Of a DNA stretch of 64,000 nt, positions 4,748-31,018 are shown in pieces. The notes under the pieces are model-generated. The model saw only the letters and a program-made list of their open reading frames with translations, searched no databases and was not told the origin of the DNA. Position 1 is the stretch's first letter, and the number at the start of each line of letters is the position of its first letter. This DNA is from a virus (Duplodnaviria; Heunggongvirae; Uroviricota; Caudoviricetes): IMG/VR virus record IMGVR_UViG_3300046055_000032, positions 22,145 through 86,144 of that record; one strand, given 5' to 3'. Position numbers and translations under genes: made by a program.

Positions 4748-5830
4748 TCAGGTTCCGTGCGTGTGTTTCGGTTTCACCCACGCGCTGGCTTCGATGCTGA
4801 AGTCGCTGGACGTGTTCGAGTCGTTGTTAATGATCTCGATTTGGAGCGTGGAGAGCGGGTCTTCGCCGTTCACGTCCGTGGTTCCGCGAACGATGGCGGC
4901 CCAGGCGTGCGACGGGATGAAGTCCGTCCAGGATTGTTGCCGGCCGGACGTATCGTCTGACGTCGTGACGGCCATCGTCTTGTACGGGGTTGGTTCCCCG
5001 TCCTCGTACAGTTTCCATTGATAGTCCACGGATTCTTGGGCCGTGATGGCGATCTTGTACGTGAATCCGTCGTCGTCGGCGAGGTTTAGGATCTCGTTCG
5101 CGAACCGGAGCTTGATGTCCTCGACGCCGCCACTGTTAACGTTGATGGTGTCTTGGACTTGCGCGCCGGTCGTGTTGCGCGTCGGGGAGCCGGCTTGCCC
5201 GGTCGCGGTCGTGGATTGGATGTTCGTTTCGACTTCCTCGTGCCGGCGCCGGTTGCGTTCCATTTTGGCGAGACGGCTCGGTTTCGGGAGGCCGACGCGG
5301 ACCGTTAGCGCTTCGCGCATCTGCTCGTACTCGAATCCCATGAAGCGGCCGGTGAGTTGCGTACCGTTGGATCGGCGGACGCCCACCTTGTCTCCAACGT
5401 TCGCGTTAAAGTCGTCACCTTGCAGCTCTCCCGAGTAAAGCGTGGCTTCGATTTGTCGGATACCGTTATAGTTGCCGTCGTCGTCTTGCCCGTTGTACAT
5501 TTCGATGAGCGTGTTCGCGAGCTTTTGCGCGGTTGTTTGGTCGTCGATCCAGGGAGTATACACGACGGCTTCGCGGCGACCGAAGGCATCGATGCTGTTC
5601 GTGTCCGTGATGAAGTCCGTTTCCTCTTGCGGTTCGCCGGTTCCCATGCCGGCGTACCGTACCGTGATGGCGTTCATGATTCTCTCGCGATCCAGGTCGC
5701 TTTTCAGTTTGCGTAGTTCGGTGTCCTCGTCCAGGATGCGATCCTCGTCGGGGCCGTCGAACGGGTTCGTTGTATCGAACCGTTCCCCGTCGGATGTTTG
5801 GTAATTGACTCGGAGTGTCGGTCCGCCCAT
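4748..5830 (-). CDS. virion structural protein (360 aa)
   Basis: Ser/Thr/Asn-rich ORF in the structural block; 2 nt after the upstream gene. Confidence 0.55.
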   Translation of the reverse strand: MGGPTLRVNYQTSDGERFDTTNPFDGPDEDRILDEDTELRKLKSDLDRERIMNAITVRYAGMGTGEPQEETDFITDTNSIDAFGRREAVVYTPWIDDQTTAQKLANTLIEMYNGQDDDGNYNGIRQIEATLYSGELQGDDFNANVGDKVGVRRSNGTQLTGRFMGFEYEQMREALTVRVGLPKPSRLAKMERNRRRHEEVETNIQSTTATGQAGSPTRNTTGAQVQDTINVNSGGVEDIKLRFANEILNLADDDGFTYKIAITAQESVDYQWKLYEDGEPTPYKTMAVTTSDDTSGRQQSWTDFIPSHAWAAIVRGTTDVNGEDPLSTLQIEIINNDSNTSSDFSIEASAWVKPKHTHGT

Positions 5831-5832
5831 CG

Positions 5833-6492
5833 TTAGTAGTCCATAGCGTACGTGATGGCAACGATGTCGCCGTCCGTGACGGACGTCGCGGTAACGCTCG
5901 CGTGATCCAGGAGGAAGTCGGCGAGGCTGGCGCCGCCGTAGTTGCCGACGATGTACAGGCCGACGTTCGTGATGTCCATTGATCCTTGATCGTGCTCGTA
6001 CTGCATGGATACGTCAAGTTTCGTATTGTGGATGTCGAGCGTGGAGGAGTCCACGGCGGATGTGACTTGCTCGCCGCTGACCGTCGTGTCCGTGCGTGAC
6101 GGGGACGCGCCCCCGTTACCGTACGCCAATTTCAGTTTCTCGTCGGGGTTATCGTTCCAGAAGTGTGGGTCCAAAGTGTTTCCGTTCTCGCCGATTTTGA
6201 TCGCAACGGTCCGGTTGTTGCCGCCGCTGTCCGTGAGCGTGCGTTCGTTGTCAGCGTTCTGTCGGCTGGGCTCGAAGAGGCCGTCCAGGATCTTGCCCCA
6301 GTTCTCGTTCCCCAGCTCGCGCTCGCTCCATCCGCTGGATCGGGCCGGTTCGGGCGCGTGCGGGTCGTTCCATACGTCGACGCGAGCGTACATTCCGATC
6401 GGGAAGCTCCCGTCCTCGTCGGGGAGTGATCGCTCCCGGGGCTTGTCTCCGCTCCAGGCGTCGGCGTCAATGTTCGTCATCGTCGTCACCAT
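5833..6492 (-). CDS. tail fiber / receptor-binding-like protein, paralog B
   Basis: Paralogous to 6486..7133 (GMYARVDV vs GMRGRVAV; C-terminal GDIVAITYAMDY vs GDTVQVTYEISW). Confidence 0.55.
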   Translation of the reverse strand: MVTTMTNIDADAWSGDKPRERSLPDEDGSFPIGMYARVDVWNDPHAPEPARSSGWSERELGNENWGKILDGLFEPSRQNADNERTLTDSGGNNRTVAIKIGENGNTLDPHFWNDNPDEKLKLAYGNGGASPSRTDTTVSGEQVTSAVDSSTLDIHNTKLDVSMQYEHDQGSMDITNVGLYIVGNYGGASLADFLLDHASVTATSVTDGDIVAITYAMDY

Positions 6493-7133
6493 GAAATTTC
6501 GTACGTTACTTGTACCGTGTCGCCGTCGGAGACGTTTGGGCCGCTGATGTATGTGTGATCCATCAAGGAGTAGTGATACGCGGCGTCCGTACCGTTATTG
6601 CTGTTAACGAGGAGGTAATAACCGATGTTCTCGACCGTGGTGGGGCTCCCTCCGTAAGCGGAGGACCCGCTAACGGTTAGCGTTCCGTTGCTGGTATCGA
6701 GTGACGTTTCGCCGGCGTTAAACTCATCGTACTTGGAACTGATGTCGTCATCGCTGATGGACGCGCTGCCGCTGCCGTCGTCTCCCCACCCTACGCGAGC
6801 CCAAGTGAAACGGTCATCAGCGTCCGCGAACACGTTTGACCATTCCGTTTGTCCTTCGGCGTTTTCCCAAGTTTGGAACGTAATCTTGGCGCCGTTATAA
6901 ACTTGGATTTTGTCTCCGCCGTCGGTTACTTGTTGGACGCTCACGTCACCGGGTTTGTCAGTAAGGATGCTGTGGAAGAGCAGTCCGAAGTTCTGGGTCC
7001 CGAGCTGGTACGGGGACCAAGGGCTGTGCTCCGTTTCGCCGTTCTCGCGATGCACTGCGACGCGTCCGCGCATCCCGACGGCGACGCCGGGTTTGTGTTC
7101 CGGTCGCGGTGGTTCCCACGTTTCAATCGGCAC
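6486..7133 (-). CDS. tail fiber / receptor-binding-like protein, paralog A
   Basis: GTG start; paralog of 5833..6492; overlaps it by 7 nt. Confidence 0.55.
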   Translation of the reverse strand: MPIETWEPPRPEHKPGVAVGMRGRVAVHRENGETEHSPWSPYQLGTQNFGLLFHSILTDKPGDVSVQQVTDGGDKIQVYNGAKITFQTWENAEGQTEWSNVFADADDRFTWARVGWGDDGSGSASISDDDISSKYDEFNAGETSLDTSNGTLTVSGSSAYGGSPTTVENIGYYLLVNSNNGTDAAYHYSLMDHTYISGPNVSDGDTVQVTYEISW

Positions 7134-7223: not shown

Positions 7224-9497
7224 TTAGGGGTTAATGTCCAGCGTGGGGTTGAGAGTGTACGTTTTCGATGTTTGCGTTCCGCTCGGCTCGACGGTGACGT
7301 CACCGGTCAAGGGATAACTCTTCGAGATGAACGTCCCGCTTGGCTCGATCGTGAGATCGCCAGCAAGGCTATAGTCCTTGTTCGTGAGTGTTCCAGCGGG
7401 CTCGATCGTGAGATCGCCGGTCAGCGAGTAGTTGAACGTTTCGTCGGCCGTCGGGTTCGGGCTCGGCGGTTCGGCCGTTTCCGAGACGCCGGTCGTGGTG
7501 TCGATGCTGATATAGTCCTCGAACCGGGGGCTGCCGCTGCTGCCCGTCATGGCGAGATCGTACAGGAAATCGCGGACGTTCTCGTTCCGTACGCGAACGA
7601 CTTGTTCCTCGCCGGTATCAATGGCGCCTCCGACGACGTTGCGGGCACCCTCTTGCTCTTCGAGCTGCTCCAGGACGGGCGTTGGGCGTTCGTCGATGCG
7701 CCATTGCGCGACGGTCGTTGAACTCAAACCCCCGGAAGCCGACCCCGGACCCCGGATCTCTTCCCGCGGCCGCGTGATGGTTCGAAGGGTCGCTTTGGGC
7801 TCGCTGTCGTCCCAGATCTGGCCGTAATTCGCGCTGCCGTCCAGGACGTCCCGGGTAACGTTCCCGTTCCCGTCCAAGTCGTGAGCGGCACCGAGCGTGA
7901 AATACCCGTCCTCGCCACCTTTCGGCGTGATGTTAATGTTCGACGTGTACTCGTTCCCGTTGATGGAGACGGTCAAGTCGTCTTCTTGGAGGTCACGGTA
8001 CACCCAGACACGGTTGAGGCCGGTCGGGACGTTACCGACTTGAACGGTTTGCGCGCCGCCGTCGCCTTCGTGCCGGAACACCAGTTCGTCCGAGGCGTTC
8101 ACGGACAGTTCGTAAAGCGTGTTCGTTCGATCCGTGCCGGTCGTGCTCGTCGTGCCGGTCCATCCCAGGATGCCGTGCTCGACGCCCGAAGCGTCGCGCT
8201 CGAAGATGACGGCGATGGATAGGTCGCCCGTGATGCGGAGCTGGTCGTCGTGCCCAACCGCCTCCCCATCGCTTCCATCCGCCTCGATGCCGATCCCCCA
8301 TTTGGGCTCAGCGCTCTCGCGCGTCCCGATGGGGTGCTCTCGCCGGAGATGAATGTTGTTGTTGGTGGTGTCGTCGAGGGACAGTTTCGGCGACCCCTCG
8401 TACAGGCCCATCGGGAACCATGTCTGTTCGTCGCCGAGGAGACCGATCGGGCCGCTGCCGGACGTGTATTCCGTGAGGACGCCGAGCGGTTTCGGGATGT
8501 CCCAGAAACGGGCGCCATAGACGTGCCCGTCGAGATAGCGGTTGCCGTCATCGTGCCCGATGTAACACTCTCCATCCCCGCCGCCGTCCGGGGAGTTGCT
8601 GTACGTTTCATCAATGAATGTGTCGCCGTCCACGTTGATCTCGATGGTTTGCTCGGCGTCGTCGCGCGATAGCGTGAGGACGTGAAAACCGGGGGGGATG
8701 CCGTTCGAGCTGGTGAACGTTACGGAATTGTTCGAGCCGTACTGGTGACGGTACCGGAGAACGTTCCCGTTGTTGCTGGGCTCGATCTCCAGGTAGTACT
8801 GGTCGTTGTCGCTTTGCGATGTACCGGCAGAAGAGGTCCAACCGAGGAGCGGGTCCACGCTCCCGTCGCTGTTGCGATGGAAAGCGAAGAGGATGGTTAG
8901 GTCGCCACCGTGACTGCCTCCGAACTTCAAGTCCAGAGAACCGCTGTACAGGTACCCGTTGCTGCCATCGAAACCGTAACCGGTCTGGAACTTGTCTTGC
9001 CTCGAAACGTTGGAGAGACCGTCGTCGCTTTCGTTCAAGTAGAGGTTACCGACCTTGTCGTGCGGGCTCGCGTACCCGCGCTGCTCGCCCATGATGATGC
9101 TGCGAACGTTCCCCTCGTGCTGCTCTTCGTTGTCGAACACCTTTGACAGCATCTCGCGCTCCAAGCCCTTGCCGCGGAGTTCGTACGTGACGGGCTTGTT
9201 ATTGTACGCGTCGATGGCGGATTGGTCATCGGATTCGGCACGATCGAGGACGCCCGTGAACAGGAACGTTCCGTCCGTTCCGTCCGTGCTGTCGTTCTTC
9301 GTTACACGGAACAGGCGGTCGTTCGTCATGAGATCCTGGACGGACGACGACGTCACGTACGCGGTCAGGGAGACGGTCGGGATCTCGTTCAGTGAGCGCC
9401 CGAGCGACATGCCCGTAAAGCGATCCACTTCGTACCAAGCCTCGGCGTCGTCGTCGAAGAGCCACAACTTGTAGTATTGGCTCGTCACGTTACCCAC
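7224..9497 (-). CDS. large tail fiber/adhesin with two LamG (concanavalin-like) domains and three C-terminal 18-aa tandem repeats
   Basis: 757 aa; two similar roughly 130-aa segments (GDLTILFAFHRNSDGS.../GDLSIAVIFERDASG...); C-terminal repeats YSLTGDLTIEPAGTLTNK / YSLAGDLTIEPSGTFISK / YPLTGDVTVEPSGTQTSK. Confidence 0.65.
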   Translation of the reverse strand: MGNVTSQYYKLWLFDDDAEAWYEVDRFTGMSLGRSLNEIPTVSLTAYVTSSSVQDLMTNDRLFRVTKNDSTDGTDGTFLFTGVLDRAESDDQSAIDAYNNKPVTYELRGKGLEREMLSKVFDNEEQHEGNVRSIIMGEQRGYASPHDKVGNLYLNESDDGLSNVSRQDKFQTGYGFDGSNGYLYSGSLDLKFGGSHGGDLTILFAFHRNSDGSVDPLLGWTSSAGTSQSDNDQYYLEIEPSNNGNVLRYRHQYGSNNSVTFTSSNGIPPGFHVLTLSRDDAEQTIEINVDGDTFIDETYSNSPDGGGDGECYIGHDDGNRYLDGHVYGARFWDIPKPLGVLTEYTSGSGPIGLLGDEQTWFPMGLYEGSPKLSLDDTTNNNIHLRREHPIGTRESAEPKWGIGIEADGSDGEAVGHDDQLRITGDLSIAVIFERDASGVEHGILGWTGTTSTTGTDRTNTLYELSVNASDELVFRHEGDGGAQTVQVGNVPTGLNRVWVYRDLQEDDLTVSINGNEYTSNINITPKGGEDGYFTLGAAHDLDGNGNVTRDVLDGSANYGQIWDDSEPKATLRTITRPREEIRGPGSASGGLSSTTVAQWRIDERPTPVLEQLEEQEGARNVVGGAIDTGEEQVVRVRNENVRDFLYDLAMTGSSGSPRFEDYISIDTTTGVSETAEPPSPNPTADETFNYSLTGDLTIEPAGTLTNKDYSLAGDLTIEPSGTFISKSYPLTGDVTVEPSGTQTSKTYTLNPTLDINP

Positions 9498-10059
9498 CTC
9501 CGAGGTTCCCGACCGAAAACGTTAACTGGTACACGTACTGGTCCACTTCGCCCGCGACTTCCGTGGATCGCAACTGGTTCACCATGCCCTCCCATTCGCG
9601 CGGGTTCTCGCTGCTGCTCCACTCAGGGTACCCGAGCTTGATGGGGCCGCTCGCGTAATCTTGATGCGCTTGATCCGCGACGAAGTCGTACAGCATGTCC
9701 CGCACGTCCCGGCCGAGCTGTTGCGAGGAAACCGTGCTGGTATCGCTGTCCCCGTCCCGTTGCGCGGGAATGTGCTCCCCGTTGCCGTCACCGTACGGGG
9801 CGTTCGAGAGGTCGGGATAATCCGCCGCCTCGGCCGTAAGGATGAAACCGCTGATTTGGATGCGCGGCTGCTGGCTGCCGAGGTTAATGATGAAGTTCGT
9901 GGCGGACTCGCCTGTCAACTCGGTTGAAGTGTTCCCAGGGATTTGCGGGTCGATGAGTCGTACTTCGAGCGTTGGTTTTAACCGTTCGGCGGACAGGAAC
10001 AAGTACTCGTTGTTGCCGGTGCCGTCGTGTTGGCGCCGCAAATAGAACGTTAGGGACAT
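9490..10059 (-). CDS. tail structural protein (distal tail/baseplate-like)
   Basis: 189 aa ORF between the tape-measure genes and the fibers. Confidence 0.5.
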   Translation of the reverse strand: MSLTFYLRRQHDGTGNNEYLFLSAERLKPTLEVRLIDPQIPGNTSTELTGESATNFIINLGSQQPRIQISGFILTAEAADYPDLSNAPYGDGNGEHIPAQRDGDSDTSTVSSQQLGRDVRDMLYDFVADQAHQDYASGPIKLGYPEWSSSENPREWEGMVNQLRSTEVAGEVDQYVYQLTFSVGNLGGG

Positions 10060-10065
10060 GATGAA

Positions 10066-11094
10066 TCAATGCGTTGGTTGGTGGTTGCCGGTGCTGATGC
10101 CCATGTCTTGAAGATCCTTGTCGCTGAGTGCACCGATGATGGGCAATCCCTCGCCGGGTTCTCCCATGTCCATGCCGTGGAATTTGCCGTCCTCCATGCT
10201 GGGCAGGAAGCTGAGGAAGCCGTCAGCGATGAACTCGCCGATCGTCATCCACGAGTCCTTGAACAGGACGATCACTTCCATGAACAGTTCGCCGAGCGAC
10301 TTGATGTAGTCCACCCACGTGTCCATGAACTCGGACGCGCCCTCCTGTAGGAAGTCCATGCTGTCGTCATCGATCAACTCGCGCTCGCCGCGAAGCTTCG
10401 CCAGCATACCTTCCACGATTTGCGTCCCGATCTCCATCAAGCCCGCGCTCATTTTCAGGAGACCGCCGATCAGGATGCTCGCGATCCCGACGCCCGCCTC
10501 CGGTCCGAAGAGGGCGCCGAGGATGCCACCCTCTTGACTAGACAGGTCGACGAGGAAGCGCGCCAGCTCTTGCATGGTTTCCATGAGCGGACGAATCACG
10601 GGCAGAAGCGAAATGAACAAGAGATCGCTGAAGAGGCCCAGGATGTCGCCGAGCAGCTTGAACACTTGCTTGAAACCTTCCCCGCTGAACAGTACGGCGA
10701 GCGCGCCGAACCCGGCCATCATGGCGCCGCCGCCTTTCTGGAACGCGCTGAACGCCGCCTCCATCATGCCCGCCTGCTCGCTGACCTGGTCAACTTTTTC
10801 CTGCTCCTCCTCGGGCGGCATCATGTCGAAGTTGTCGTACATGTCTTGCAAGGCGTCGCGGCTGGATTGGAACTCTTCCGCGAATTCGCCTTGCGGGAGA
10901 GCGCCCATCGCTTCCGAGATGCGCAGGGAGGCGTCGCTGATGAGTTCGGCGCCCTCCTGGAAGTCCTCCATCGCGGCCGTTAGTTCGGGTGCTTGATCCG
11001 CGAACTCGTCCAGTTTGTCCATTTCCGCGCGCGGTACGTCGAACTCGACGGCGCCCTGCAACGCGCCGAGGTTGAACTCGGGACCGTCAGCCAT
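10066..11094 (-). CDS. tape-measure-like protein, paralog 2
   Basis: Met/Ala/Leu/Gly-rich with hydrophobic helices; paralog of 11087..12250 (LAVLFSGEGFKQVFKLLGDILGLFSDLLFISLLPVIRPLMETMQELARFLVD vs LAVLLAGDGFQFLLRAFMDFAQLFSEFMFVALLPIVKRAAPVMQHLLDTIRD). Confidence 0.6.
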   Translation of the reverse strand: MADGPEFNLGALQGAVEFDVPRAEMDKLDEFADQAPELTAAMEDFQEGAELISDASLRISEAMGALPQGEFAEEFQSSRDALQDMYDNFDMMPPEEEQEKVDQVSEQAGMMEAAFSAFQKGGGAMMAGFGALAVLFSGEGFKQVFKLLGDILGLFSDLLFISLLPVIRPLMETMQELARFLVDLSSQEGGILGALFGPEAGVGIASILIGGLLKMSAGLMEIGTQIVEGMLAKLRGERELIDDDSMDFLQEGASEFMDTWVDYIKSLGELFMEVIVLFKDSWMTIGEFIADGFLSFLPSMEDGKFHGMDMGEPGEGLPIIGALSDKDLQDMGISTGNHQPTH

Positions 11095-12250
11095 TAATGA
11101 TGCCCTCCGATGGTTGCTGTCCGGTGTGACCGCTCACGGCTTGTCCTTTGTCTACCTGCCCAACGTAATCGTTCACGTCACCGGGAACGAGGTCGGGCGT
11201 CACGTGCCGTCGCACGTATTCGCCGATATGGTTCCAGGCGTCCTCTAACTCGATCATGGCTTGCATGAACACGTCCGCGAGATCGTACGAAGCGGACAGG
11301 AACGCGTTCGCGCTCTCGCGCAAGTACCGGAACGGGCGCTCCAACGTTTCGAGATCCTCCCGCATCCCCTCCAGCCCGTTCTGGATCTGCGCCGTGAGTT
11401 GGTCAACGATCCTCGTACCGATCTCCATAAAGCCCGTGGACAGTTTCAGGAACCCGGCAACGAGAACGGACCCCAGCTCGGTAAGTTTCTCGGGACTGGC
11501 ATCTTGGAGCCCGGGGCCGCCCATGATGTCCCGGATGGTGTCAAGGAGATGCTGCATGACGGGTGCCGCCCGCTTGACGATCGGCAGCAACGCCACGAAC
11601 ATGAACTCGCTGAACAGTTGCGCAAAGTCCATGAATGCGCGGAGCAGGAACTGGAACCCGTCCCCGGCCAACAGGACGGCCAACGCACCCAACATGCCCG
11701 TCAACGGGCCCGCCCCCTTCGCCAGTTTCGGGAACACGCGCTTCGCAACGCCTCGACCGGCAACGAACGTGTCCAACTTGTCCAGGACTTGATCCGACAA
11801 GCTCAGATCCTGCGTTTGGGCGTGATCCACGGCCTCGCGCGTCTTCGCCTCAGCGTTGGTCGCGTCCGTCGTTGCGTCCCGGAGCTGCTCCATGCCGTAC
11901 TCTGGCCGGAGCGCCATCGCTGCGGCATCCAGTTCTTGCGCGCCGCGCAAGAACGACGCGGACGCATCCTCGGTATCGCGTGCCGCGGCAGCTTTCTCCG
12001 TTAAGAGATCCAGCTCGAACGTTGGCGTTTGCATGTCAACGGTACCGCGGAACGTTCCGAGGTTCAAGTCGCTGGTCATCAGTTCACGAAGTTCTCGTAC
12101 TCGCGTTGCCGTTTCCGTTTCTCCATACGCCGCTCGCGCTCCTCCTTCTCCGCTTGCTGGAAACCGATGAAGTGCTTCATACGCCGGACGGGCATCCGTT
12201 CCGCCTCCTCGCGCGTGTAACGCAGCGCGTCCATCTTGATCAACATCCAT
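11087..12250 (-). CDS. tape-measure-like protein, paralog 1
   Basis: Lies immediately downstream of the chaperone frameshift cassette; coiled-coil and hydrophobic segments. Confidence 0.6.
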   Translation of the reverse strand: MDVDQDGRAALHARGGGTDARPAYEALHRFPASGEGGARAAYGETETATRVRELRELMTSDLNLGTFRGTVDMQTPTFELDLLTEKAAAARDTEDASASFLRGAQELDAAAMALRPEYGMEQLRDATTDATNAEAKTREAVDHAQTQDLSLSDQVLDKLDTFVAGRGVAKRVFPKLAKGAGPLTGMLGALAVLLAGDGFQFLLRAFMDFAQLFSEFMFVALLPIVKRAAPVMQHLLDTIRDIMGGPGLQDASPEKLTELGSVLVAGFLKLSTGFMEIGTRIVDQLTAQIQNGLEGMREDLETLERPFRYLRESANAFLSASYDLADVFMQAMIELEDAWNHIGEYVRRHVTPDLVPGDVNDYVGQVDKGQAVSGHTGQQPSEGIING

Positions 12251-12270
12251 TCCGTAAGGTTGCGCTGCAT
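12079..12270 (-). CDS. -1 frame extension ('T-like' part) of the tail assembly chaperone
   Basis: ORF in the -1 frame relative to 12306..12755; it is entered exactly by a -1 slip at A_AAA_AAG (12309-12315). Confidence 0.45.
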   Translation of the reverse strand: MQRNLTEWMLIKMDALRYTREEAERMPVRRMKHFIGFQQAEKEERERRMEKRKRQREYENFVN

Positions 12271-12305
12271 CCGAGGGTCAGGCTGCCGGTCTGCCCGTCC
12301 CAGTG

Positions 12306-12755
12306 CTACTTTTTTGCGTCCTGGACCTCCTGGTCAGTCGCGGACGCGCTTCGAACGGCGGCCGTGATGCCGGTCTCGTCCAGGATCTTGTCAGCGAGAT
12401 CGCCATCTTTCAGCATCTCCCAACCGATCGAGGGCGATTTGGGGAGGTTCCATTTCTTCACGACCCGCCGTACGAGTTCGCGCTCCATCACGCTCGGCAT
12501 GGTTCTTGGTTCGTCCGCGTTCGGGTTCTCCTCCATGTACGCGAGCGCCGCCTTCTCGGCGGCCTCGTACTTCATACCGCGCGTCACTTCGTAATGCCAA
12601 ACCTTGATCGTTTGGCCGCGATGCTCGAACTGCGCGAGCTGTGTTTCTTGCGAGGCGAAGAAGTCTTTCGGGTCCTCGACTTGCTCCTGCCGCTCCTGCT
12701 CGGGATCGGGGGCGTCGTCGTCACTCATACATACACTCCTTGAGCCGCTTTTCAC
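12306..12755 (-). CDS. tail assembly chaperone ('G-like'), ends AKK-TAG on the slippery heptamer
   Basis: Position between the major tail protein and the tape-measure genes; slippery site GCA AAA AAG TAG at its 3' end. Confidence 0.6.
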   Translation of the reverse strand: MKSGSRSVCMSDDDAPDPEQERQEQVEDPKDFFASQETQLAQFEHRGQTIKVWHYEVTRGMKYEAAEKAALAYMEENPNADEPRTMPSVMERELVRRVVKKWNLPKSPSIGWEMLKDGDLADKILDETGITAAVRSASATDQEVQDAKK

Positions 12756-12787
12756 ACGGCGTTAACCGCTGTCACGCGGCGTAACGG

Positions 12788-13906
12788 TTACAGGCTGTTA
12801 TACGCGGATTGGGTGTCGAGGCTGATGACGCGGATCTCGTGCGGGACGACGTCAACGCTCGTCACGACTTCGTCGCCGGTTTCGTTCCACGGGTGCGGTG
12901 ATGCTTGAATGTGACAGTCCTGGAACACGAAATGCAGTTCGTCGCTGCCGTCGGCGCGCTGGAAGGGGATGAGGATGTCACCTTGAACGCCGTCTTCGAG
13001 CAAGTCGTACGTGGCGTTACTGTCCTCGCTCGCGAGATGCGCGGCGGGAACGACGTCCATGCTGAGCGAGTACTCGGGCTGACTGGTCGTAAAGAACTTG
13101 ACTTTTTGAGCGTCGCCGGAATGCGTGAAGAATTGCGGTTTGAGGCCGTTGCGGATGCTCCAGTTGAAACTGTTCACGTGCGCGATCGTGCGTCCGTCCG
13201 AGCCGAGGTTGATGCCGAGATCGTCCTGGTCGTAGGATGGGGAAGAGTAATCGAAGCTCCCCATCATCTGGATGTTCGCGGCGCGGTCGTAGAACATGTA
13301 CGGGTTACCGGGATCGTTCGGGTTCGCGGCGTCACCGGGCTCGGGTTGCGACGGAAGCGTCGGGTTCGCGTCGTCGTGATCCTGGACTTCTTTCGCGCGG
13401 AAGCTCGTACTGACTTGCAGCTCGCCGCCCTCGCTAATGCTGACGGTCGCTTCCTCGACCGTGCAGCCCGTGAAGGTTCGCAGAAAGTCCGGGTTCCCTT
13501 CGAGGGGGGCTTTCAACGTGAAGCTGGGCAGTTTCGTTGCCTGGCTCGTCGTCGTGCCGGGGGGAGTGGGTCCTTTGTCGTCCGGCATGAGCGTGTGAGC
13601 GTTCTCGACACCTGACGGGGTATTGTTCGAGGACTCGAACGTTTCCGTCCCGAAAACGTACCAGAAGAACTCTCCGGTCGTGGGCAGGATGTCGAGCGTT
13701 GCGGGCCCGTACTCTTCCCGTCCCTCTTTGCTCTTGTACCGGCGGCGCCCGGCACCGAAACTGTTGTACTCTTTGACGTCCACGGCCTTGTCCGGGAGGT
13801 CAGCGTTCGCGTTCGTGATACCAAGAAAGCGGTCAGTAGTGGCTGCCGTCCCGAACGTGGCCTCTTGACCGTACGCGAGCCGTGTTTGGCTGCTAACCCA
13901 TACCAT
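12788..13906 (-). CDS. major tail (tube) protein
   Basis: 372 aa structural ORF immediately upstream of the chaperone and tape-measure genes. Confidence 0.5.
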   Translation of the reverse strand: MVWVSSQTRLAYGQEATFGTAATTDRFLGITNANADLPDKAVDVKEYNSFGAGRRRYKSKEGREEYGPATLDILPTTGEFFWYVFGTETFESSNNTPSGVENAHTLMPDDKGPTPPGTTTSQATKLPSFTLKAPLEGNPDFLRTFTGCTVEEATVSISEGGELQVSTSFRAKEVQDHDDANPTLPSQPEPGDAANPNDPGNPYMFYDRAANIQMMGSFDYSSPSYDQDDLGINLGSDGRTIAHVNSFNWSIRNGLKPQFFTHSGDAQKVKFFTTSQPEYSLSMDVVPAAHLASEDSNATYDLLEDGVQGDILIPFQRADGSDELHFVFQDCHIQASPHPWNETGDEVVTSVDVVPHEIRVISLDTQSAYNSL

Positions 13907-13957
13907 GCGGGCGGGGAGAGGCGCTTGTTCGCTCGGGATAAAGGTTCGGGGATTCTG

Positions 13958-14602
13958 TTACGCGCCGCCGGCAACGTACTCGCATTGATCGATGAACCCC
14001 GGCTCGTTCATGGACCAACCGACGCCGCCGCCCGCGAACGTCGTATCCGTCGCACTCACGGACCCGTACGATACGCCGTCCAAGTCGTAGACGGTGCACG
14101 TGATGGTGCCATCGTTCGCCCATCGAACCACGACCTCCAACCATTCGTCAGAGGGTGAGAGCGATCCCTCGTGAGTAGCCAGACTGGATGACGAGCCGCC
14201 GTCCGTTACGCTGAGCGTCATGGTCCTCGGAGTGGGGCCGCGCACCCCGAACTCGTATTGGTAATAGTTGCTCGCGTTTTGCATCCCGAAATAGAACAGG
14301 ACTTCCGTTGGTTGCGTGTTGGAGCCGCTCGTGTCCCGGTACGCGAAGAACCGGATCTTGTCTCCCTGCGACGGATAGCTCGGGAGACCACTGGTCGAGA
14401 AGATGACGTTCGAGCTGTTCGTGCTCTGCTCCAGGGATCGCTGCTCGGCGTACGGACGCGTCGTGCTGGCAGCCCACGAGCCCGTATCGCCAACGTACTC
14501 GCTGATGTTGCCGTCCTCCGCATCCTCGACCGTGACCCAATCGAAGCGCTCCGTCGCGGCGCGCAGCCCGCTGTCGCGCAATGTGCCGTCGTTGCTTGTC
14601 AT
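13958..14602 (-). CDS. tail/neck structural protein
   Basis: 214 aa Ser/Thr/Gly-rich ORF. Confidence 0.5.
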   Translation of the reverse strand: MTSNDGTLRDSGLRAATERFDWVTVEDAEDGNISEYVGDTGSWAASTTRPYAEQRSLEQSTNSSNVIFSTSGLPSYPSQGDKIRFFAYRDTSGSNTQPTEVLFYFGMQNASNYYQYEFGVRGPTPRTMTLSVTDGGSSSSLATHEGSLSPSDEWLEVVVRWANDGTITCTVYDLDGVSYGSVSATDTTFAGGGVGWSMNEPGFIDQCEYVAGGA

Positions 14603-14606
14603 CGTG

Positions 14607-15107
14607 TCACCGGTACGCTTGGTACGTTACGTTCGCTGCCGACGATGATTTGATCCACGTCACGCCGAACCCGTCGTCGTGAAACGTCGAGCGGGCCGTC
14701 GCGTAACCGTCGATGTTTGACCCGCTGTTGCTGGTCTCGATCAAGTACACGATGCGTTCGTCTCCCGTGAACGAGTGATGCCGTTCCGTGCCCCCGGAGT
14801 TGCAAGACATGCCCGTCACGACTTCTTTCGTGCCGCCGGCCTGGTCCGGGTCCCAGGTCGCGAGACCGCGACTGTAACCGAACGCGTTGTTCCCGTCGGG
14901 CCCGGACGAGTACTCGCTGCCGCGTGAACCCAAATGCAGGTTCGCGTAAAACAGGACGAGTGAGGGGCGGAACCCCAGCGAGATCGACGACGTGCTGGTC
15001 GAGAACGTTCCGGTAGCGTCAGCTTGTCCCGCGGGAAGTTGCTGCAACATGGTTACGCGATCGCTCGGTACAGCGTGAACACGTTCGGCGTGACGGTTGA
15101 CGACCAC
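14607..15107 (-). CDS. small tail protein, paralog of 15053..15508
   Basis: Shared PQLVLFYSNLH / PSLVLFYANLH and DDGF..W motifs; the start may be the internal MLQQL. Confidence 0.5.
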   Translation of the reverse strand: MVVNRHAERVHAVPSDRVTMLQQLPAGQADATGTFSTSTSSISLGFRPSLVLFYANLHLGSRGSEYSSGPDGNNAFGYSRGLATWDPDQAGGTKEVVTGMSCNSGGTERHHSFTGDERIVYLIETSNSGSNIDGYATARSTFHDDGFGVTWIKSSSAANVTYQAYR

Positions 15108-27637: not shown

Positions 27638-30600
27638 TCATGGAATCATACCTCTCGGCATGGCGTTCCCGGTCAGTTGTTCGTAAACGATCGGGAACGT
27701 GTCCTTGAACTCCAAGTAATCCTGCTCCGGCAACATGGACGCGTCAATGTTCCCGTCCAGGCTATGCTTCATCGCGTCGAACACCCGGTCAGGGTTATCG
27801 AACTCTTGATACATCTTGAAGCAGGCCGAGCATTGCTCGTTCCACTCCTCCTCGAACACTTCGCCGCCCAGCGCCGCGAACGCGAGCATGTGCGCGGCCA
27901 AGCTCGGGTCGTCCGTTTTCGTTAACCGGTGATCCACGCGCCGAGCCTGTGATCGCGGGATCTCGTTCAACGCCCTCACGAACGCGTCACTGTGCACGTG
28001 ACTGACGCCGTGCGCGTCCGCGCTCTTCTGTTGATGTTGACAGATCGCCCACGCACTCTCCTCGTCATGACCCTCGTCGCGCAAACTCTCGACGCACTCG
28101 TGCGCTTCTTTCGGGTTCGCGACGTGCTCGTCAACCGGGACGTCCCCCCCGTCGCCGTCCCGATCGCGCGGAGAGTCAGCGGCTCGCTGCTCGCGCCGCT
28201 GCTTGTCTTGCGCCATCTGTTGATCGAGGCCGTTAAAGATCCCGTCCTTGTCGGCGGCGGAGCCCTCGTGCTCGTTAACGTCGTCCGTTTCGTCGAGCCG
28301 GCGATCCTCGTAATCGTCCTCGTCCTCTTGCTCGAAACGGGTATCGTCGCGATCCTTGCCACGGATCATGCCGAGCGTGCCCTTGTACATGCTCGCGACC
28401 CGCTCGTGACTGGGCTTCTTCGTGAATTGGCGCAGCATGGCGTGACGTTTCGCGCGCCACTCGCTCGCGGCGTGAAGCTCGTCGAGCGTCTTGCTCATCG
28501 CCGCAACGTCCCCGTCGTCTCGGTGCTCGCAGTCCTCGGGGCAACCGTCTTCGTGCCGCGGGCACGCCCCGTACTCCTCGCTGTCCTCGTCCTCGTCGTC
28601 TTTGGCGAGGACGTCATCCAGCTGGTTCTCGTACTCCTTCATCGCGAACCCTCGCGGGCGTGTCCCGGCCGTGTCGTCGTCATCGTTCGCGGAGTCCTCC
28701 GTACGGTCACTGCCCGCCGGGTAAAGATAATCCTCGACGTCACCGAGCTGCGGCTTCTGCGACGACGCGTCAGCGCGCGCCACGTGCGCCGACGACGCCG
28801 CGGTCGGGCGCGCCGGATAATCCAACGGGAACCCCCGGAACGAGCCGCTGTCGTCGCTGCCACGATTCTGCCCGTACGTGGGCCGCTGACGCATCACTTC
28901 GCTGCCGAGCGACTTCATCTTGTGCTCACCGGTATCGCGGAAGTACCTGTCACCGCTCGGGTGAGCCAACTCGCGCGCGAGCGCGTTACGGTATCCCGGA
29001 AGGGTGTTCATGTCTTTTCTGTCAAGGACTCGCGCATAGTCCGAGGTGCCGCCATAGCCGTGTGACTCGACGGTCTCGATCACGTCCCGCAACGCTTCCG
29101 GCTTGATCTCGAAGATCTCTTCGATCTTCTCGTAATCCGGCTCACGACCAAGCATCTCCCGGACCTCCGGGAATCGGGCTCCGCCACCCTCGCCGCCGGG
29201 ATCGCCCCCATCATGGGGATCGCCCTCGCCGTGAGGCTCGTCACCCCCGCTCTCGGCGCTCTCGTCGTAATAGTAGCCGCCGCGCGGGCCTTGCTGTACG
29301 TCCGCTCCCTCGGGTGCGTCCGAGGGGTCATCGACGTACGTGCGATCCTTAACGAGCGTCTGCAATTCCTTCAGCGTCTTGTCGCGGTGCGCGGCGTGCT
29401 CGTCGTAACTGTCAGCGACGTGCTCGTCGAGGTCACTGATAACGTCAACGGCGCTTTCCAGCCATGCGATGTCGTCGGCGCTGACGTTGCGCTCGAACGC
29501 TCGCATGTACTCTTGAAAGTCATCGAGCGCGTCATGGACGTCCCTGCGTTCCTCGCGGCGCATCGCGTCAACGTGATCTTTGACGAGCGCGTCGTCTCGT
29601 TTCAGTCGCGCGATCGCGAGACCGGCCCGGTCAACGTTACCTTTCTGGAGATCGATGCTGGCCTCGTACAGGTAATCGGCGAGGGAGCCGCACGCGATAG
29701 CGTCCTTGAACGCGATACCGTCCAGGATCGCCGCCTTGCTCGTTTCGTCCTCGATGACGTCGTCGTGGGACCGATGCTCGTCCTCGTCATCGCGTCCCGT
29801 CTCGTCGAGGCGCTCCAGGCGGCGCTTCATCTCCTTGCCCTCCTCTTCTTCTTTCTCGTCGTCGCTGTCCGCTTCCTCGTCAGCGTCCGCTCCGTCCTCG
29901 TCGTTGAGGAGGTCGTCGAGCGCCTTGTCAACGGTCGCGAGCGCGTCCTCGTACTCTTCGACGTCCTCGTCACCGTCCTGCTTGTCCGGTTCCTCGTCGT
30001 CGTCGTTCCAGAAGAAACGATACGACTCTTCGCCGTCGCTGACTCGCATCCCGTTCTCGGTTTTCGCGATGACGTCGAACCCCGCGCCTTGATTCATGCC
30101 GCGATCGCAGATCGTGACGGCGCTGAGGCTAATCTTCTCGATCTCGTTAACGAGCTTGCACGTGAACCCGCTACAGTCCGTCGTTTGTTGGGACTGCACG
30201 GCTTGCCCGCTGATACTGAACGCGCGCAAATCACCTTTCAGGATCTTCTCCGCGATGTCGCGCCCGATCTCGTCGTCCGTGTAAATTTTCCCAACGACGA
30301 ACAGGGCTTCCGTCCCCGGTTCGACGTCCGCGTCCTTGAGCAGATCGAACCGTTGCAGATCACTGGGCGTGACGGCGCGGACCTCGGTCTTGTAAACCGT
30401 GCCGTCCTTCGCCTCCCACGATTCGAGGATCTCGCCCGGAATGATGTCCGTGTGCTGCAACGAGAACCGGGCGCGCTTCAAGAGTTGCGGGAGCGCCGCC
30501 CGGAGCGCGTCGCCTTTGATGAGGTCGTTTTCGTCGTCAACGACGGCCACCGACGCGGGACCGTAAATCGTGACGCCGTCGCGCGCCTTGAACACGCGCA

Positions 30601-31018
30601 TCTCGTTCCGCGGACTCGGACGCCGCGCCGCTTTTCGCGCTCGATTGATGGGGTTGCTGTCCTCGGGCTCCGCCGCGTCCTCGGGCTCGTTCGAGTCCTG
30701 GCAAGAGCAATCCGTTCCGCGGCCGCAGCCACAATCCTTCGCCGTCGCGTCCTCGTCGTCCTCTTCATCGTCTGCGGGAAAGTCACGCTCCTCGTCGTCG
30801 CCGCTGACGACTTGCCGGAAGGAGTCCGGGTCGCCTTTCAGGATGTCGTTCGCGACCGCGTCCGCGAGCTGTTTCGAGAGACCGTTGCTCCGCAGGTCCT
30901 CTCGGATGGTGGCGTACGCGGTATCGTCCCCGAACTCCTCGCGGACGCGCTGCGCCTTACGGAAATAGTGCAGGAACCCCTCGCTCGGGGTCCCGTCAGC
31001 GATTGGAGTGGCCACCAA
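27638..31018 (-). CDS. 1126-aa polyprotein with an HK97-family prohead protease domain (aa ~140-320) and a long acidic scaffold-like extension
   Basis: RVFKARDGVTIYGPASVAVVDDENDLIKGDA...LQHTD...GLRAFSISGQ resembles S78 prohead protease motifs; the remainder is D/E-rich; contains the shared YVDDPSDAPEGADVQQGPRGGYYYDES motif (nt ~29261-29341). Confidence 0.65.
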   Translation of the reverse strand: MVATPIADGTPSEGFLHYFRKAQRVREEFGDDTAYATIREDLRSNGLSKQLADAVANDILKGDPDSFRQVVSGDDEERDFPADDEEDDEDATAKDCGCGRGTDCSCQDSNEPEDAAEPEDSNPINRARKAARRPSPRNEMRVFKARDGVTIYGPASVAVVDDENDLIKGDALRAALPQLLKRARFSLQHTDIIPGEILESWEAKDGTVYKTEVRAVTPSDLQRFDLLKDADVEPGTEALFVVGKIYTDDEIGRDIAEKILKGDLRAFSISGQAVQSQQTTDCSGFTCKLVNEIEKISLSAVTICDRGMNQGAGFDVIAKTENGMRVSDGEESYRFFWNDDDEEPDKQDGDEDVEEYEDALATVDKALDDLLNDEDGADADEEADSDDEKEEEEGKEMKRRLERLDETGRDDEDEHRSHDDVIEDETSKAAILDGIAFKDAIACGSLADYLYEASIDLQKGNVDRAGLAIARLKRDDALVKDHVDAMRREERRDVHDALDDFQEYMRAFERNVSADDIAWLESAVDVISDLDEHVADSYDEHAAHRDKTLKELQTLVKDRTYVDDPSDAPEGADVQQGPRGGYYYDESAESGGDEPHGEGDPHDGGDPGGEGGGARFPEVREMLGREPDYEKIEEIFEIKPEALRDVIETVESHGYGGTSDYARVLDRKDMNTLPGYRNALARELAHPSGDRYFRDTGEHKMKSLGSEVMRQRPTYGQNRGSDDSGSFRGFPLDYPARPTAASSAHVARADASSQKPQLGDVEDYLYPAGSDRTEDSANDDDDTAGTRPRGFAMKEYENQLDDVLAKDDEDEDSEEYGACPRHEDGCPEDCEHRDDGDVAAMSKTLDELHAASEWRAKRHAMLRQFTKKPSHERVASMYKGTLGMIRGKDRDDTRFEQEDEDDYEDRRLDETDDVNEHEGSAADKDGIFNGLDQQMAQDKQRREQRAADSPRDRDGDGGDVPVDEHVANPKEAHECVESLRDEGHDEESAWAICQHQQKSADAHGVSHVHSDAFVRALNEIPRSQARRVDHRLTKTDDPSLAAHMLAFAALGGEVFEEEWNEQCSACFKMYQEFDNPDRVFDAMKHSLDGNIDASMLPEQDYLEFKDTFPIVYEQLTGNAMPRGMIP

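What the first reader, a model, noticed from the sequence alone, without database searches (positions are those of the whole stretch)
12079..12755. Canonical -1 programmed ribosomal frameshift cassette (A_AAA_AAG then TAG) in the tail assembly chaperone of an archaeal virus
The chaperone ORF between the major tail protein and the tape-measure gene ends ...GAC GCA AAA AAG TAG. The heptamer A AAA AAG (minus strand, 12315-12309) is the textbook -1 slippery site. A -1 slip reads GTA GCA CTG... and enters ORF 12079..12270, extending the protein by about 80 aa that overlap the tape-measure start. This is the lambda G/GT arrangement, preserved in a haloarchaeal virus.
Basis: partly seen in the sequence, partly recalled or inferred. 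Interest (0 to 1): 0.55.

Follow-up and report, generated by a model that had tools for sequence, protein, structure and literature searches.

The report
Tail-chaperone −1 frameshift site, halophile virus

Summary
On the minus strand the 140-codon ORF 12728..12306 ends GCA AAA AAG TAG, with A_AAA_AAG (12315..12309) in the 0 frame. The −1 frame is open for 76 codons to TGA 12081..12079, which shares its A with the ATG of the next gene.

The heptamer alone is not beyond chance (2 found, 1.98 expected). Comparison makes the case. Ten metagenomic relatives (tube 32–60% identical) all carry an in-frame X_XXY_YYZ heptamer at the same alignment column: nine A_AAA_AAC and one G_GGA_AAC. The G_GGA_AAC is a coordinated switch that keeps slipperiness but breaks the A-run.

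Protein-level conservation jumps from the 0 frame to the −1 frame exactly at the heptamer. Five relatives have no start codon from which the conserved T domain could be made. No in-frame G–T fusion exists among 1.84 billion representative proteins.

The flanking genes are a tail tube (Pfam Phage_tube_2) and tape-measure-like proteins, and the G model resembles tail assembly chaperones. No conserved downstream RNA structure was found.

Haloviruses HCTV-2 (GCA AAA AAC TGA), HCTV-5/HVTV-1 and Hardycor1 already have this frameshift annotated or published. Verdict: a new member of a known kind.

The parts
12788..13906 (-). Tail tube (major tail) protein gene, 372 aa, immediately upstream of the chaperone gene
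   Evidence: Pfam Phage_tube_2 3.7e-11; PHROG 290; about 23% identity to the annotated tail tube of HCTV-5, HVTV-1, HHTV-2 and HCTV-2
12306..12728 (-). G ORF: tail assembly chaperone, 0 frame, 140 aa plus TAG. ATG 12728 is preceded by an AAGGAG SD-like motif
12326..12330 (-). GGAGG, exactly 10 nt 5' of the heptamer: candidate SD-like stimulator (unproven; also encodes a conserved Glu)
   Evidence: Exact in 6 of 11 family members and a 4/5 match in the other five. Same motif and spacing in the unrelated HCTV-5 site. GGAGG lies upstream of 7 of 22 gene starts against 3.3% background. Not separable from coding constraint; absent in HCTV-2 and displaced in Hardycor1
12309..12315 (-). Slippery heptamer A_AAA_AAG in the 0 frame (codons GCA AAA AAG)
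   Evidence: Invariant GCAAAAAA island in the first nine aligned loci. In-frame heptamer at the same column in 11 of 11 loci. All nine loci examined use the minority codons GCA (12%) and AAA (22%)
12306..12308 (-). 0-frame stop TAG directly abutting the heptamer
   Evidence: In relatives the 0-frame stop lies 3 to 42 nt downstream, so the abutting stop is particular to this virus, as it is in HCTV-2
12079..12309 (-). T segment: -1 frame, 76 codons (VALGRA...ENFVN) plus TGA 12081..12079. The GT fusion is 216 aa
   Evidence: -1 frame free of stops in 11 of 11 loci, and the only conserved frame downstream of the slip (mean score 108.5 against 35 and 37). Basic, pI 10.3, in an acidic proteome
12275..12301 (-). 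Local 8-bp hairpin starting 7 nt 3' of the heptamer; not supported as a stimulator
   Evidence: Fold z-score +0.72 against shuffles; RNAalifold predicts 0 conserved pairs in 9 loci; no Rfam match
11087..12079 (-). Tape-measure-like gene 1 (330 aa); its ATG 12079..12077 overlaps the T stop as TGATG
   Evidence: Weak similarity to the L009 homologue (1e-4), which hits PHROG tape-measure families
10066..11094 (-). Tape-measure-like gene 2 (342 aa), a tandem paralogue of gene 1
   Evidence: 30% identity, E 9e-31 to gene 1. 6e-11 to the L015 homologue, which hits PHROG tape-measure families at 3.4e-9

Best explanation
This is a programmed -1 ribosomal frameshift of the lambda G/GT type in the tail assembly chaperone gene of a tailed virus of a salt-in halophile, most likely a haloarchaeon.

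Most ribosomes translate ORF G (12728..12306) and stop at TAG, giving a 140-aa acidic chaperone. A minority slip back one base, with the P- and A-site tRNAs on AAA and AAG of A_AAA_AAG (12315..12309). They then read GTA GCA CTG... in the -1 frame and make a 216-aa GT protein whose 76-aa C-terminal T domain is basic. The T stop overlaps the start of the tape-measure-like gene (TGATG).

By analogy with lambda, the shared G part would coat the tape-measure protein and the T part would recruit tube subunits. A fixed low GT:G ratio would be set by slip efficiency.

Shown here: the sequence anatomy, synteny, conservation of the slip pattern, the frame switch in conservation, and the lack of an independent route to T. 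Inferred: that slippage occurs, its efficiency, the roles of G and T, and the host. No conserved downstream RNA structure was found. The adjacent stop codon and/or an upstream GGAGG (10 nt, dnaX-like spacing) may stimulate slippage, but that is unproven.
For: - **Anatomy.** An in-frame A_AAA_AAG is followed by TAG, with the -1 frame open for 76 codons to the next gene's ATG.
- **Synteny.** The order is tail tube, then G, then T, then tape-measure-like genes, inside a terminase-portal-tail module on one strand.
- **Conserved heptamer.** Ten relatives with 32-60% tube identity all have an in-frame X_XXY_YYZ heptamer at the same alignment column. The 0-frame stop wanders from 0 to 42 nt downstream, and the -1 frame always ends at the next gene's start (-44 to +13 nt).
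- **Invariant island.** GCAAAAAA is an invariant island in DNA of 62% mean column identity. It uses codons chosen only 12% (GCA) and 22% (AAA) of the time elsewhere.
- **Coordinated switch.** L014 has GCG GGA AAC (G_GGA_AAC). The triplet change keeps slipperiness but changes Lys to Gly and abolishes the A-run.
- **Frame switch.** Protein-level conservation switches frame at the heptamer: the 0 frame scores 104 upstream, and the -1 frame scores 108.5 downstream against 35-37 for the other frames. There are no -1 stops in 11 of 11 loci.
- **No independent start.** L006, L008, L012 and L013 have no ATG/GTG/TTG in the -1 frame before the conserved D-Y-E-x-W motif. L014 has one only about 50 codons upstream of the slip.
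- **Conservation upstream of the window's ATG.** In the window, conserved residues (A-L-G-R-A-D-R, matching L-V-L-G-R-A-D-R in L007) lie upstream of the only ATG, at 12270.
- **No in-frame fusion.** The T peptide finds only 57-92 aa orphan ORFs and no in-frame G-T fusion among 1.84 billion representatives.
- **Fold.** The G model resembles tail assembly chaperones.
- **Precedent.** GenBank annotates joined chaperone CDSs in HCTV-2 (GCA AAA AAC TGA) and HCTV-5 (G_GGA_AAG). Hardycor1 has G_GGA_AAT (PMC7911831).
Against: - No experimental evidence exists for the fusion product here, or (in the literature I could read: PMC5009743, PMC8211752) for any haloarchaeal virus.
- No conserved downstream stimulatory structure was found, so efficiency cannot be argued from the sequence.
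- The window's Z base is G, unlike the AAC of all ten relatives. A_AAA_AAG is optimal in E. coli but poor in eukaryotic-type systems, and its behaviour on haloarchaeal ribosomes is unknown.
- The window's tape-measure-like ORFs have no direct family hit.
Confidence: 0.85

Rival explanations
1. T is an ordinary small gene (63 aa, ATG 12270) translated on its own, by re-initiation or coupling after G. The heptamer is a coincidental Ala-Lys-Lys C-terminus and no fusion protein is made.
For: - An ATG exists in the -1 frame at 12270, 35 nt after the G stop, and gene callers report a 63-aa ORF there.
- L004, L009 and L015 have an ATG two codons after the slip.
- Public gene calls list such orphans.
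Against: - L006, L008, L012 and L013 have no start codon before the conserved motif, and L014 has none within about 50 codons.
- Gene callers found no T gene at all in L006, L007, L011 and L013, leaving 150-210 nt 'gaps'.
- Called starts are inconsistent and some truncate the conserved domain.
- Conservation in the -1 frame begins at the slip site, upstream of ATG 12270.
- The heptamer is kept against codon bias, and is kept as a pattern (AAA to GGG) rather than as amino acids.
Confidence: 0.07
2. The same GT protein is produced by transcriptional slippage. RNA polymerase adds one extra A in the A6 run, giving an mRNA subpopulation in which G and T are in frame.
For: - Ten of eleven loci have a run of six A's.
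- The protein product would be identical (GCA AAA AAA GTA...), so protein data cannot separate the two mechanisms.
- Only 4 A6 runs occur in 128 kb of both strands.
Against: - L014 replaces the run by GGGAAAC, which has no homopolymer longer than 3 yet is still a perfect X_XXY_YYZ in the correct frame.
- The heptamer is always in the 0-frame register that tandem tRNA slippage needs (11 of 11), which polymerase slippage does not require.
- Six A's is shorter than the runs of about 9 or more typical of productive slippage (own knowledge).
- Other haloviral sites are G_GGA_AAG and G_GGA_AAT.
Confidence: 0.05
3. Artefact or decay: G and T are one gene broken by an assembly or homopolymer error, or by a recent frameshift mutation (pseudogene).
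For: Homopolymer runs are error-prone in sequencing. The window was supplied without provenance.
Against: - The same -1 relationship is seen in 11 loci from different samples and assemblers.
- 0-frame stop positions differ between loci.
- The identical sequence occurs in two assemblies.
- No in-frame version exists anywhere in 1.84 billion representative proteins.
Confidence: 0.02

Closest known systems
Haloarcula californiae tailed virus 2 (HCTV-2) tail assembly chaperone genes 40/41 (GenBank KC292028, joined CDS; Sencilo et al. 2013, as cited in PMC5009743)
   Same: Haloarchaeal siphovirus with the order tube, chaperone, tape measure. The slip cassette is GCA AAA AAC TGA, i.e. the same GCA-AAA-AAN context with the stop codon abutting the heptamer. 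The -1 ORF ends 4 nt before the tape-measure start.
Bacteriophage lambda G/GT and the conserved tail-chaperone frameshift of long-tailed phages (Xu, Hendrix & Duda 2004, cited in PMC5009743, PMC7230728, PMC7911831)
   Same: Two overlapping ORFs lie between the major tail and tape-measure genes. [quoted passage not shown] The second ORF has no reliable start of its own. The arrangement is conserved despite sequence divergence.
   Different: Lambda uses G_GGA_AAG and bacterial ribosomes. Here the host is a halophile (probably archaeal), the heptamer is A_AAA_AAG with an abutting stop, and the T part is unusually short and basic. The function of G and T is untested here.
HCTV-5 / HVTV-1 (G_GGA_AAG) and Hardycor1 (G_GGA_AAT, PMC7911831) chaperone frameshifts
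   Same: These are predicted -1 sites in haloarchaeal siphoviruses at the same genomic position. HCTV-5 also has GGAGG exactly 10 nt upstream. L014 of the present clade uses the related G_GGA_AAC.
   Different: The heptamer class differs from the window's, the chaperones are unrelated, and Hardycor1 has only CGAGG at 7 nt.
E. coli dnaX tau/gamma -1 frameshift signal (own knowledge; SD-like stimulators mentioned in PMC8211752)
   Same: The core is identical (GCA AAA AAG), with an SD-like element 10 nt upstream of the heptamer. The 0 frame or -1 frame ends close to the site.
   Different: dnaX depends strongly on a downstream stem-loop, and none is conserved here. dnaX shortens the protein, whereas this site lengthens it. 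The host domain also differs.
Saccharolobus solfataricus fucA1 (A_AAA_AAT), the only experimentally demonstrated archaeal -1 frameshift (PMC8211752, PMC8037382)
   Same: An A-rich X_XXY_YYZ heptamer is decoded by archaeal ribosomes, and two ORFs are joined in the -1 direction.
   Different: fucA1 is a cellular crenarchaeal gene with flanking rare codons and a putative stem-loop, and close homologues are uninterrupted. Here, no uninterrupted homologue exists.

Membership tests
Caudoviricetes tail assembly chaperone G/GT programmed frameshift | Two ORFs located between the major tail (tube) gene and the tape-measure gene | tested here: met
   Tube: Pfam PF18906. The downstream gene's positional homologues hit PHROG tape-measure families, and the window's ORFs align to them. 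The same order holds in 11 loci.
Caudoviricetes tail assembly chaperone G/GT programmed frameshift | [quoted passage not shown] | tested here: met
   A_AAA_AAG at 12315..12309, 0 nt before the stop. The -1 frame opens 8 codons upstream of it.
Caudoviricetes tail assembly chaperone G/GT programmed frameshift | Second ORF in the -1 frame, lacking a dependable initiation site, and ending at the tape-measure start | tested here: met
   The T stop overlaps the next ATG (TGATG). Four relatives have no start codon before the conserved motif, and a fifth has none nearby. The window has an ATG at T codon 13, but conservation extends upstream of it.
Caudoviricetes tail assembly chaperone G/GT programmed frameshift | Arrangement conserved among relatives despite sequence divergence | tested here: met
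   11 of 11 loci, with G 18-60% identical. Frame switch in conservation at the heptamer. Coordinated AAA to GGG switch in L014.
Caudoviricetes tail assembly chaperone G/GT programmed frameshift | G protein has the tail-assembly-chaperone fold or family signature | tested here: inconclusive
Caudoviricetes tail assembly chaperone G/GT programmed frameshift | Two proteins with a common N-terminus are made at a fixed ratio; both are needed for tail assembly and absent from virions | not testable with these tools
   Requires expression, proteomics and genetics.
dnaX-type tripartite -1 signal (SD-like element + A_AAA_AAG + 3' stem-loop) | A_AAA_AAG heptamer | tested here: met
dnaX-type tripartite -1 signal (SD-like element + A_AAA_AAG + 3' stem-loop) | SD-like sequence about 10 nt upstream acting through the anti-SD of 16S rRNA | tested here: inconclusive
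   GGAGG lies at 12330..12326, 10 nt upstream. It is exact in 6 of 11 loci and a 4/5 match in 5 of 11, and is also present in HCTV-5. SD-like motifs are enriched at gene starts (7 of 22 against 3.3%). However, it encodes a conserved Glu plus Val/Ala consistent with codon bias, it is absent in HCTV-2, and it is shifted in Hardycor1.
dnaX-type tripartite -1 signal (SD-like element + A_AAA_AAG + 3' stem-loop) | Stable stem-loop or pseudoknot 5-9 nt downstream | tested here: not met
   RNAalifold finds 0 conserved pairs. Single-sequence folds give z from -2.2 to +1.5, and the window gives +0.72. No Rfam hit. Pseudoknots were not searched.
Programmed transcriptional slippage | Long homopolymer run (typically 9 or more) conserved irrespective of reading-frame register | tested here: not met
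   The run is only 6 A's. It is replaced by GGGAAAC in L014, and the register is always that of tandem tRNA slippage.

The most novel reading that the evidence does not exclude
In this virus clade, -1 frameshifting on haloarchaeal ribosomes needs no downstream RNA structure. Instead it is stimulated by an internal Shine-Dalgarno-like GGAGG placed exactly 10 nt upstream of the heptamer, pairing with the 16S rRNA 3' end as in E. coli dnaX. In this particular virus the abutting stop codon adds to the effect. That would be the first anti-SD-dependent recoding signal in Archaea, and a compact cassette of about 25 nt for studying archaeal frameshifting.
Probability: 0.15. Interest if true: 0.55.

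Novelty: new member of a known kind. Interest (0 to 1): 0.28.

Why it matters
The practical value is correct annotation. In this uncultured clade the T domain is either missed, leaving 150-210 nt 'intergenic gaps', or called as inconsistent 50-90 aa orphan ORFs. One public source names G as a DUF523/YbbK protein, which nothing here supports.

Scientifically, the 11-locus comparison, with its coordinated A_AAA_AAC to G_GGA_AAC switch, is unusually clean comparative evidence that haloarchaeal ribosomes perform tandem-slippage -1 frameshifting. In the reviews I could read, this is still only 'very likely' for haloviruses. Archaeal -1 frameshifting has been demonstrated experimentally only for S. 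solfataricus fucA1 (PMC8211752, PMC8037382).

The cassette is short and lacks an obvious structure, so it is a convenient reporter substrate. None of this changes the picture of how tailed viruses build tails.

Tried and rejected
- **DNA-level search** of 9000..15000 against annotated phages found no match. A tblastn of the GT fusion against phages also found none.
- **The search for related loci** with the tube protein, or a 2-sequence profile, found nothing in genome contigs, viral contigs or metagenome contigs. No provirus or host genome could therefore be identified. Only the 16-sequence profile recovered two IMG/VR loci.
- **Family assignment of G by sequence** failed: Pfam and PHROGs, the PDB profile search, and hhalign against HCTV-2/HHTV-2/HCTV-5 chaperones.
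- **Downstream stimulatory structure** was rejected.
- **Direct similarity** of the window's tape-measure-like ORF to HCTV-2's TMP or to L013's ORF of more than 1400 aa was insignificant. The link had to go through L009 and L015.
- **Primary papers.** Sencilo 2013 and Pietila 2013 are not held, so their content is cited only through reviews.
- **Long T-peptide hits.** P0026 and P0028 are tandem-repeat artefacts.
- **Second candidate site.** C_CCA_AAC at 6540 was judged chance, because its linker in the -1 frame is Arg-rich and unlike this proteome.
- **SD-like stimulator.** I could not separate it from coding constraint.
Full report
**1. The observation**

Reading the minus strand gives ...CAG GAG GTC CAG GAC GCA AAA AAG TAG CAC TGG GAC GGG.... 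The mechanical ORF 12306..12755 most plausibly starts at ATG 12728, which is preceded by AAGGAG. That gives 140 aa, the length of the identical gene called in two public assemblies. The heptamer A_AAA_AAG occupies 12315..12309 in the 0-frame register required for tandem slippage, and the stop TAG (12308..12306) abuts it.

After a -1 slip the ribosome reads GTA GCA CTG GGA CGG... = VALGRADRQPDPRMQRNLTEWMLIKMD..., for 76 codons up to TGA 12081..12079. That A is also the first base of the ATG (12079..12077) of the next gene (TGATG). The extension is 76 aa rather than 'about 80', and the overlap with the real start of the next gene is a single base.

**2. Is it more than chance?**

Not as a bare motif. 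AAAAAAG occurs twice in the window against 1.98 expected from shuffles, and A6 occurs four times against 8.6 expected. In 28 minus-strand genes (10,285 codons) there are 7 in-frame X_XXY_YYZ heptamers, or 0.00068 per codon.

Only two of those lie near a gene's end with a long open -1 frame. One is the site under study. The other is C_CCA_AAC at 6540, which I judge coincidental: the -1 linker reads KRLRRRHGTSNVRNF, alien to this acidic proteome, and the genes simply overlap as ATGGTGA. The case therefore rests on context and comparison.

**3. Context**

- **Upstream gene.** Gene 12788..13906 is a tail tube protein (Pfam Phage_tube_2, 3.7e-11; PHROG 290). Ten annotated phage records match it, all at about 23% identity. 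Nine are records of five Haloarcula siphoviruses (HCTV-5, HVTV-1, HVTV-2, HHTV-2, HCTV-2) and the tenth is Rossellomorea phage phiT1.
- **Wider module.** The same strand carries a large terminase (46473..47966) and a portal (40648..42699), so this is the structural module of a tailed virus.
- **Proteome and host.** The proteins are strongly acidic: D+E 17.8%, K+R 8.7%, all twelve tested at pI 4.05-4.89. GC is 60-67%. Together with the tube relatives, this makes a haloarchaeal host likely, but no host genome or provirus could be found, so it remains an inference.
- **Downstream genes.** Two tandem paralogues follow: 11087..12079 and 10066..11094 (30% identity, 9e-31). Neither hits a family directly. 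However, the positionally equivalent genes of relatives hit PHROG tape-measure families (L013 2.9e-9, L015 3.4e-9, L009 2.9e-7, L012 6.5e-6), and the window's ORFs align to L015 (6e-11) and L009 (1e-4).

**4. Relatives**

The chaperone has only one non-identical relative by direct search (P0002, 60% identity). Using the tube protein as bait, and fetching contigs plus two IMG/VR loci, I assembled ten related loci with the same gene order.

| Feature | Result across the 11 loci |
|---|---|
| Heptamer at the shared alignment column | In-frame X_XXY_YYZ in all 11: nine A_AAA_AAC, the window A_AAA_AAG, L014 G_GGA_AAC |
| 0-frame stop position | 0, 3, 3, 3, 6, 6, 36, 39, 42, 42 and 42 nt downstream of the heptamer |
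| -1 frame | Open for 68-80 codons in every locus, ending -44 to +13 nt from the next gene's start |

In the DNA alignment of the first nine loci, GCAAAAAA is an invariant island while mean column identity is 62%. It is built from codons that these genomes otherwise choose 12% (GCA for Ala) and 22% (AAA for Lys) of the time.

L014 is the most telling. GCA AAA AAC has become GCG GGA AAC. This coordinated change of the whole X triplet preserves slipperiness, changes the encoded Lys to Gly, and removes the A-run. Selection is therefore on the slippery pattern in that register, not on the peptide and not on a homopolymer.

**5. Which frame is coding?**

Over all 55 pairs, mean local BLOSUM62 scores were as follows.

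| Stretch | G (0) frame | -1 frame | Remaining frame |
|---|---|---|---|
| 198 nt upstream of heptamer | 104, no stops | the other two frames score 40 and 44 | |
| 198 nt downstream of heptamer | 35 | 108.5, no stops in any locus | 37 |

The upstream control's printed frame labels are shifted by one; the stop-free frame is the true G frame.

The GT fusions align end to end, with conserved T motifs: L-[VA]-x-G-R, D-[YLH]-E-x-W-[VIL]-L, L-P, and H-x-[IL]-G-F.

Conservation begins at the slip. The window's V-A-L-G-R-A-D-R matches L-V-L-G-R-A-D-R in L007, and this lies upstream of the window's only -1-frame ATG (12270).

**6. Rivals**

- **Independent T gene.** L006, L008, L012 and L013 have no ATG/GTG/TTG anywhere in the open -1 frame before the conserved D-Y-E-x-W motif. 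L014 has none within about 50 codons.
  - Gene callers left a 150-210 nt gap there in four loci.
  - Elsewhere they called orphans with inconsistent starts, some truncating the domain.
- **Transcriptional slippage.** This would yield the identical protein. It is disfavoured by L014's GGGAAAC, by the strict register, and by the short run.
- **Assembly error or pseudogene.** This is excluded by 11 independent loci with differing stop positions. It is also excluded by the absence of any in-frame G-T protein among 1.84 billion representatives searched with the T peptide.

**7. Is G a chaperone?**

Sequence methods say nothing. An AlphaFold2 model from a 5-sequence alignment has mean pLDDT 74.8, about 85 over residues 30-125.

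- **Foldseek against BFVD.** Most of the named matches are tail assembly chaperones: HHTV-2 at rank 2 (E 1.7e-3, TM 0.47), Acinetobacter phage Loki, Bacillus phage Gemini, Gordonia phage Teatealatte, ChaoS9 and others.

Each match is weak on its own but they agree. I score this feature as inconclusive-positive.

**8. Stimulatory elements**

No conserved downstream structure was found. RNAalifold predicts no pairs. Single folds of the 80 nt after the heptamer are no more stable than shuffles, with z from -2.2 to +1.5 and the window at +0.72. Rfam finds nothing in the window. Pseudoknots were not examined.

Two candidate stimulators remain.

- **The abutting 0-frame stop.** This is seen in the window and in HCTV-2, but not in the rest of the clade.
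- **A GGAGG 10 nt upstream (12330..12326).**
  - It is exact in 6 of 11 loci and a 4/5 match in the others.
  - The unrelated HCTV-5/HVTV-1 site also has GGAGG, then 10 nt, then G_GGA_AAG.
  - This is the spacing of the SD-like stimulator of E. coli dnaX (own knowledge; such elements are mentioned in PMC8211752).
  - The virus does use SD-like motifs: GGAGG lies within -18..-4 of 7 of 22 gene starts, against 3.3% of background windows.
  - Against it: the motif encodes a conserved Glu followed by Val or Ala with codon choices that match background bias. HCTV-2 lacks it, and Hardycor1 has only CGAGG at 7 nt.
  - It is a lead, not a result.

**9. What is known**

GenBank annotates joined (frameshifted) tail assembly chaperone CDSs in HCTV-5 and HCTV-2. 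HCTV-2's site is GCA AAA AAC TGA, nearly the window's cassette.

Reviews state that -1 frameshifting 'appears to be utilized' by HVTV-1 and HCTV-1, -2 and -5, and +1 by HSTV-2, citing Pietila 2013 and Sencilo 2013 (PMC5009743; PMC8211752). Hardycor1 has G GGA AAT (PMC7911831). HF1-group myoviruses appear to need a +1 shift (PMC7230728).

Per those reviews and PMC8037382 (abstract), archaeal -1 frameshifting has been demonstrated unequivocally only for S. solfataricus fucA1. I found no experimental proof for a haloarchaeal virus in the library. The two primary papers are not held.

**10. Verdict**

The feature is real and is best explained as a lambda-type G/GT programmed -1 ribosomal frameshift (confidence 0.85). 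It is a new member, and through the ten relatives a new uncultured clade, of a kind already described for haloarchaeal siphoviruses.

What is distinctive is modest. The chaperone family has no sequence relatives among named chaperones. The T domain is short and basic. The clade-wide heptamer is A_AAA_AAC, with this virus alone using A_AAG plus an abutting stop. No 3' structure is detectable, and there may be an SD-like 5' element. Interest 0.28.

Noticed in passing
window 10066..12079 (-); L004 4203..7441: The tape-measure-like gene is short and duplicated in tandem: 330 and 342 aa here, 30% identical. L004 has three consecutive ORFs of 330, 418 and 329 aa, most relatives have one of 271-335 aa, and L012, L013 and a JGI contig have 1083 to more than 1800 aa. 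Tape-measure length or organisation varies more than 5-fold within one tube-protein clade.
   Followed up: partly
window 35833..39248 (-): Between the portal and the head genes lie two large proteins. One has a C-terminal RelA/SpoT (alarmone synthetase-like) domain (509 aa, 4.4e-11). The other has a DRAT ADP-ribosyltransferase domain (683 aa, 2.3e-10). They may be virion-packaged effector or toxin domains. PMC8651126 mentions ADP-ribosyltransferases in HVTV-1 and HCTV-5.
   Followed up: no
window 12079..12309 (-): The T segment is strongly basic (pI 10.3; 20 K+R against 14 D+E), whereas every other protein tested in this proteome has pI 4.05-4.89. Its C-terminal third is a K/R/E-rich tail in all relatives.
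   Followed up: partly
window 12326..12330 (-); L001 5407..5411: GGAGG lies exactly 10 nt upstream of the slip site, both in this clade (6 of 11 exact) and in the unrelated HCTV-5/HVTV-1 site. This is the spacing of the dnaX SD-like stimulator. It cannot be separated from coding constraint.
   Followed up: partly
L002 (HHTV-2, KC292024) 5440..5470: HHTV-2's chaperone ends GAG GAA AAC TGA, which is not a canonical X_XXY_YYZ heptamer. Yet the -1 frame is open for 170 codons and ends exactly at the tape-measure start. GenBank annotates two separate hypothetical proteins. This may be a non-canonical slip site (G_GAA_AAC) in a close relative of HCTV-2.
   Followed up: no
window 6486..6546 (-): An in-frame C_CCA_AAC lies 45 nt before the stop of gene 6486..7133, with the next gene (5833..6492) in the -1 frame and that frame open across the junction (233 codons). 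It is probably coincidence: the linker in the -1 frame is Arg-rich (KRLRRRHGTSNVRNF), and the genes overlap as ATGGTGA.
   Followed up: partly
window 12306..12728 (-), protein P0001: One public source (JGI) names this protein 'uncharacterized protein YbbK (DUF523 family)'. No Pfam match supports that. It looks like an annotation error.
   Followed up: yes
window 27638..31018 (-): A 1126-aa ORF with 24.6% D+E and no Pfam hit lies in the head-module region. Its function is unknown.
   Followed up: no
L014 6296..7188: In the IMG/VR relative L014, about 0.9 kb separates the tube gene from the chaperone gene, whereas they are adjacent (4-120 nt apart) in all other loci. The content of the insertion was not examined.
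   Followed up: no
window 42133..42139 (-): An in-frame T_TTT_TTC lies inside the portal gene (GAT TTT TTC). The -1 frame is open for only 37 codons and the site is 1482 nt from the gene end. It is most likely just a Phe-Phe dipeptide.
   Followed up: partly
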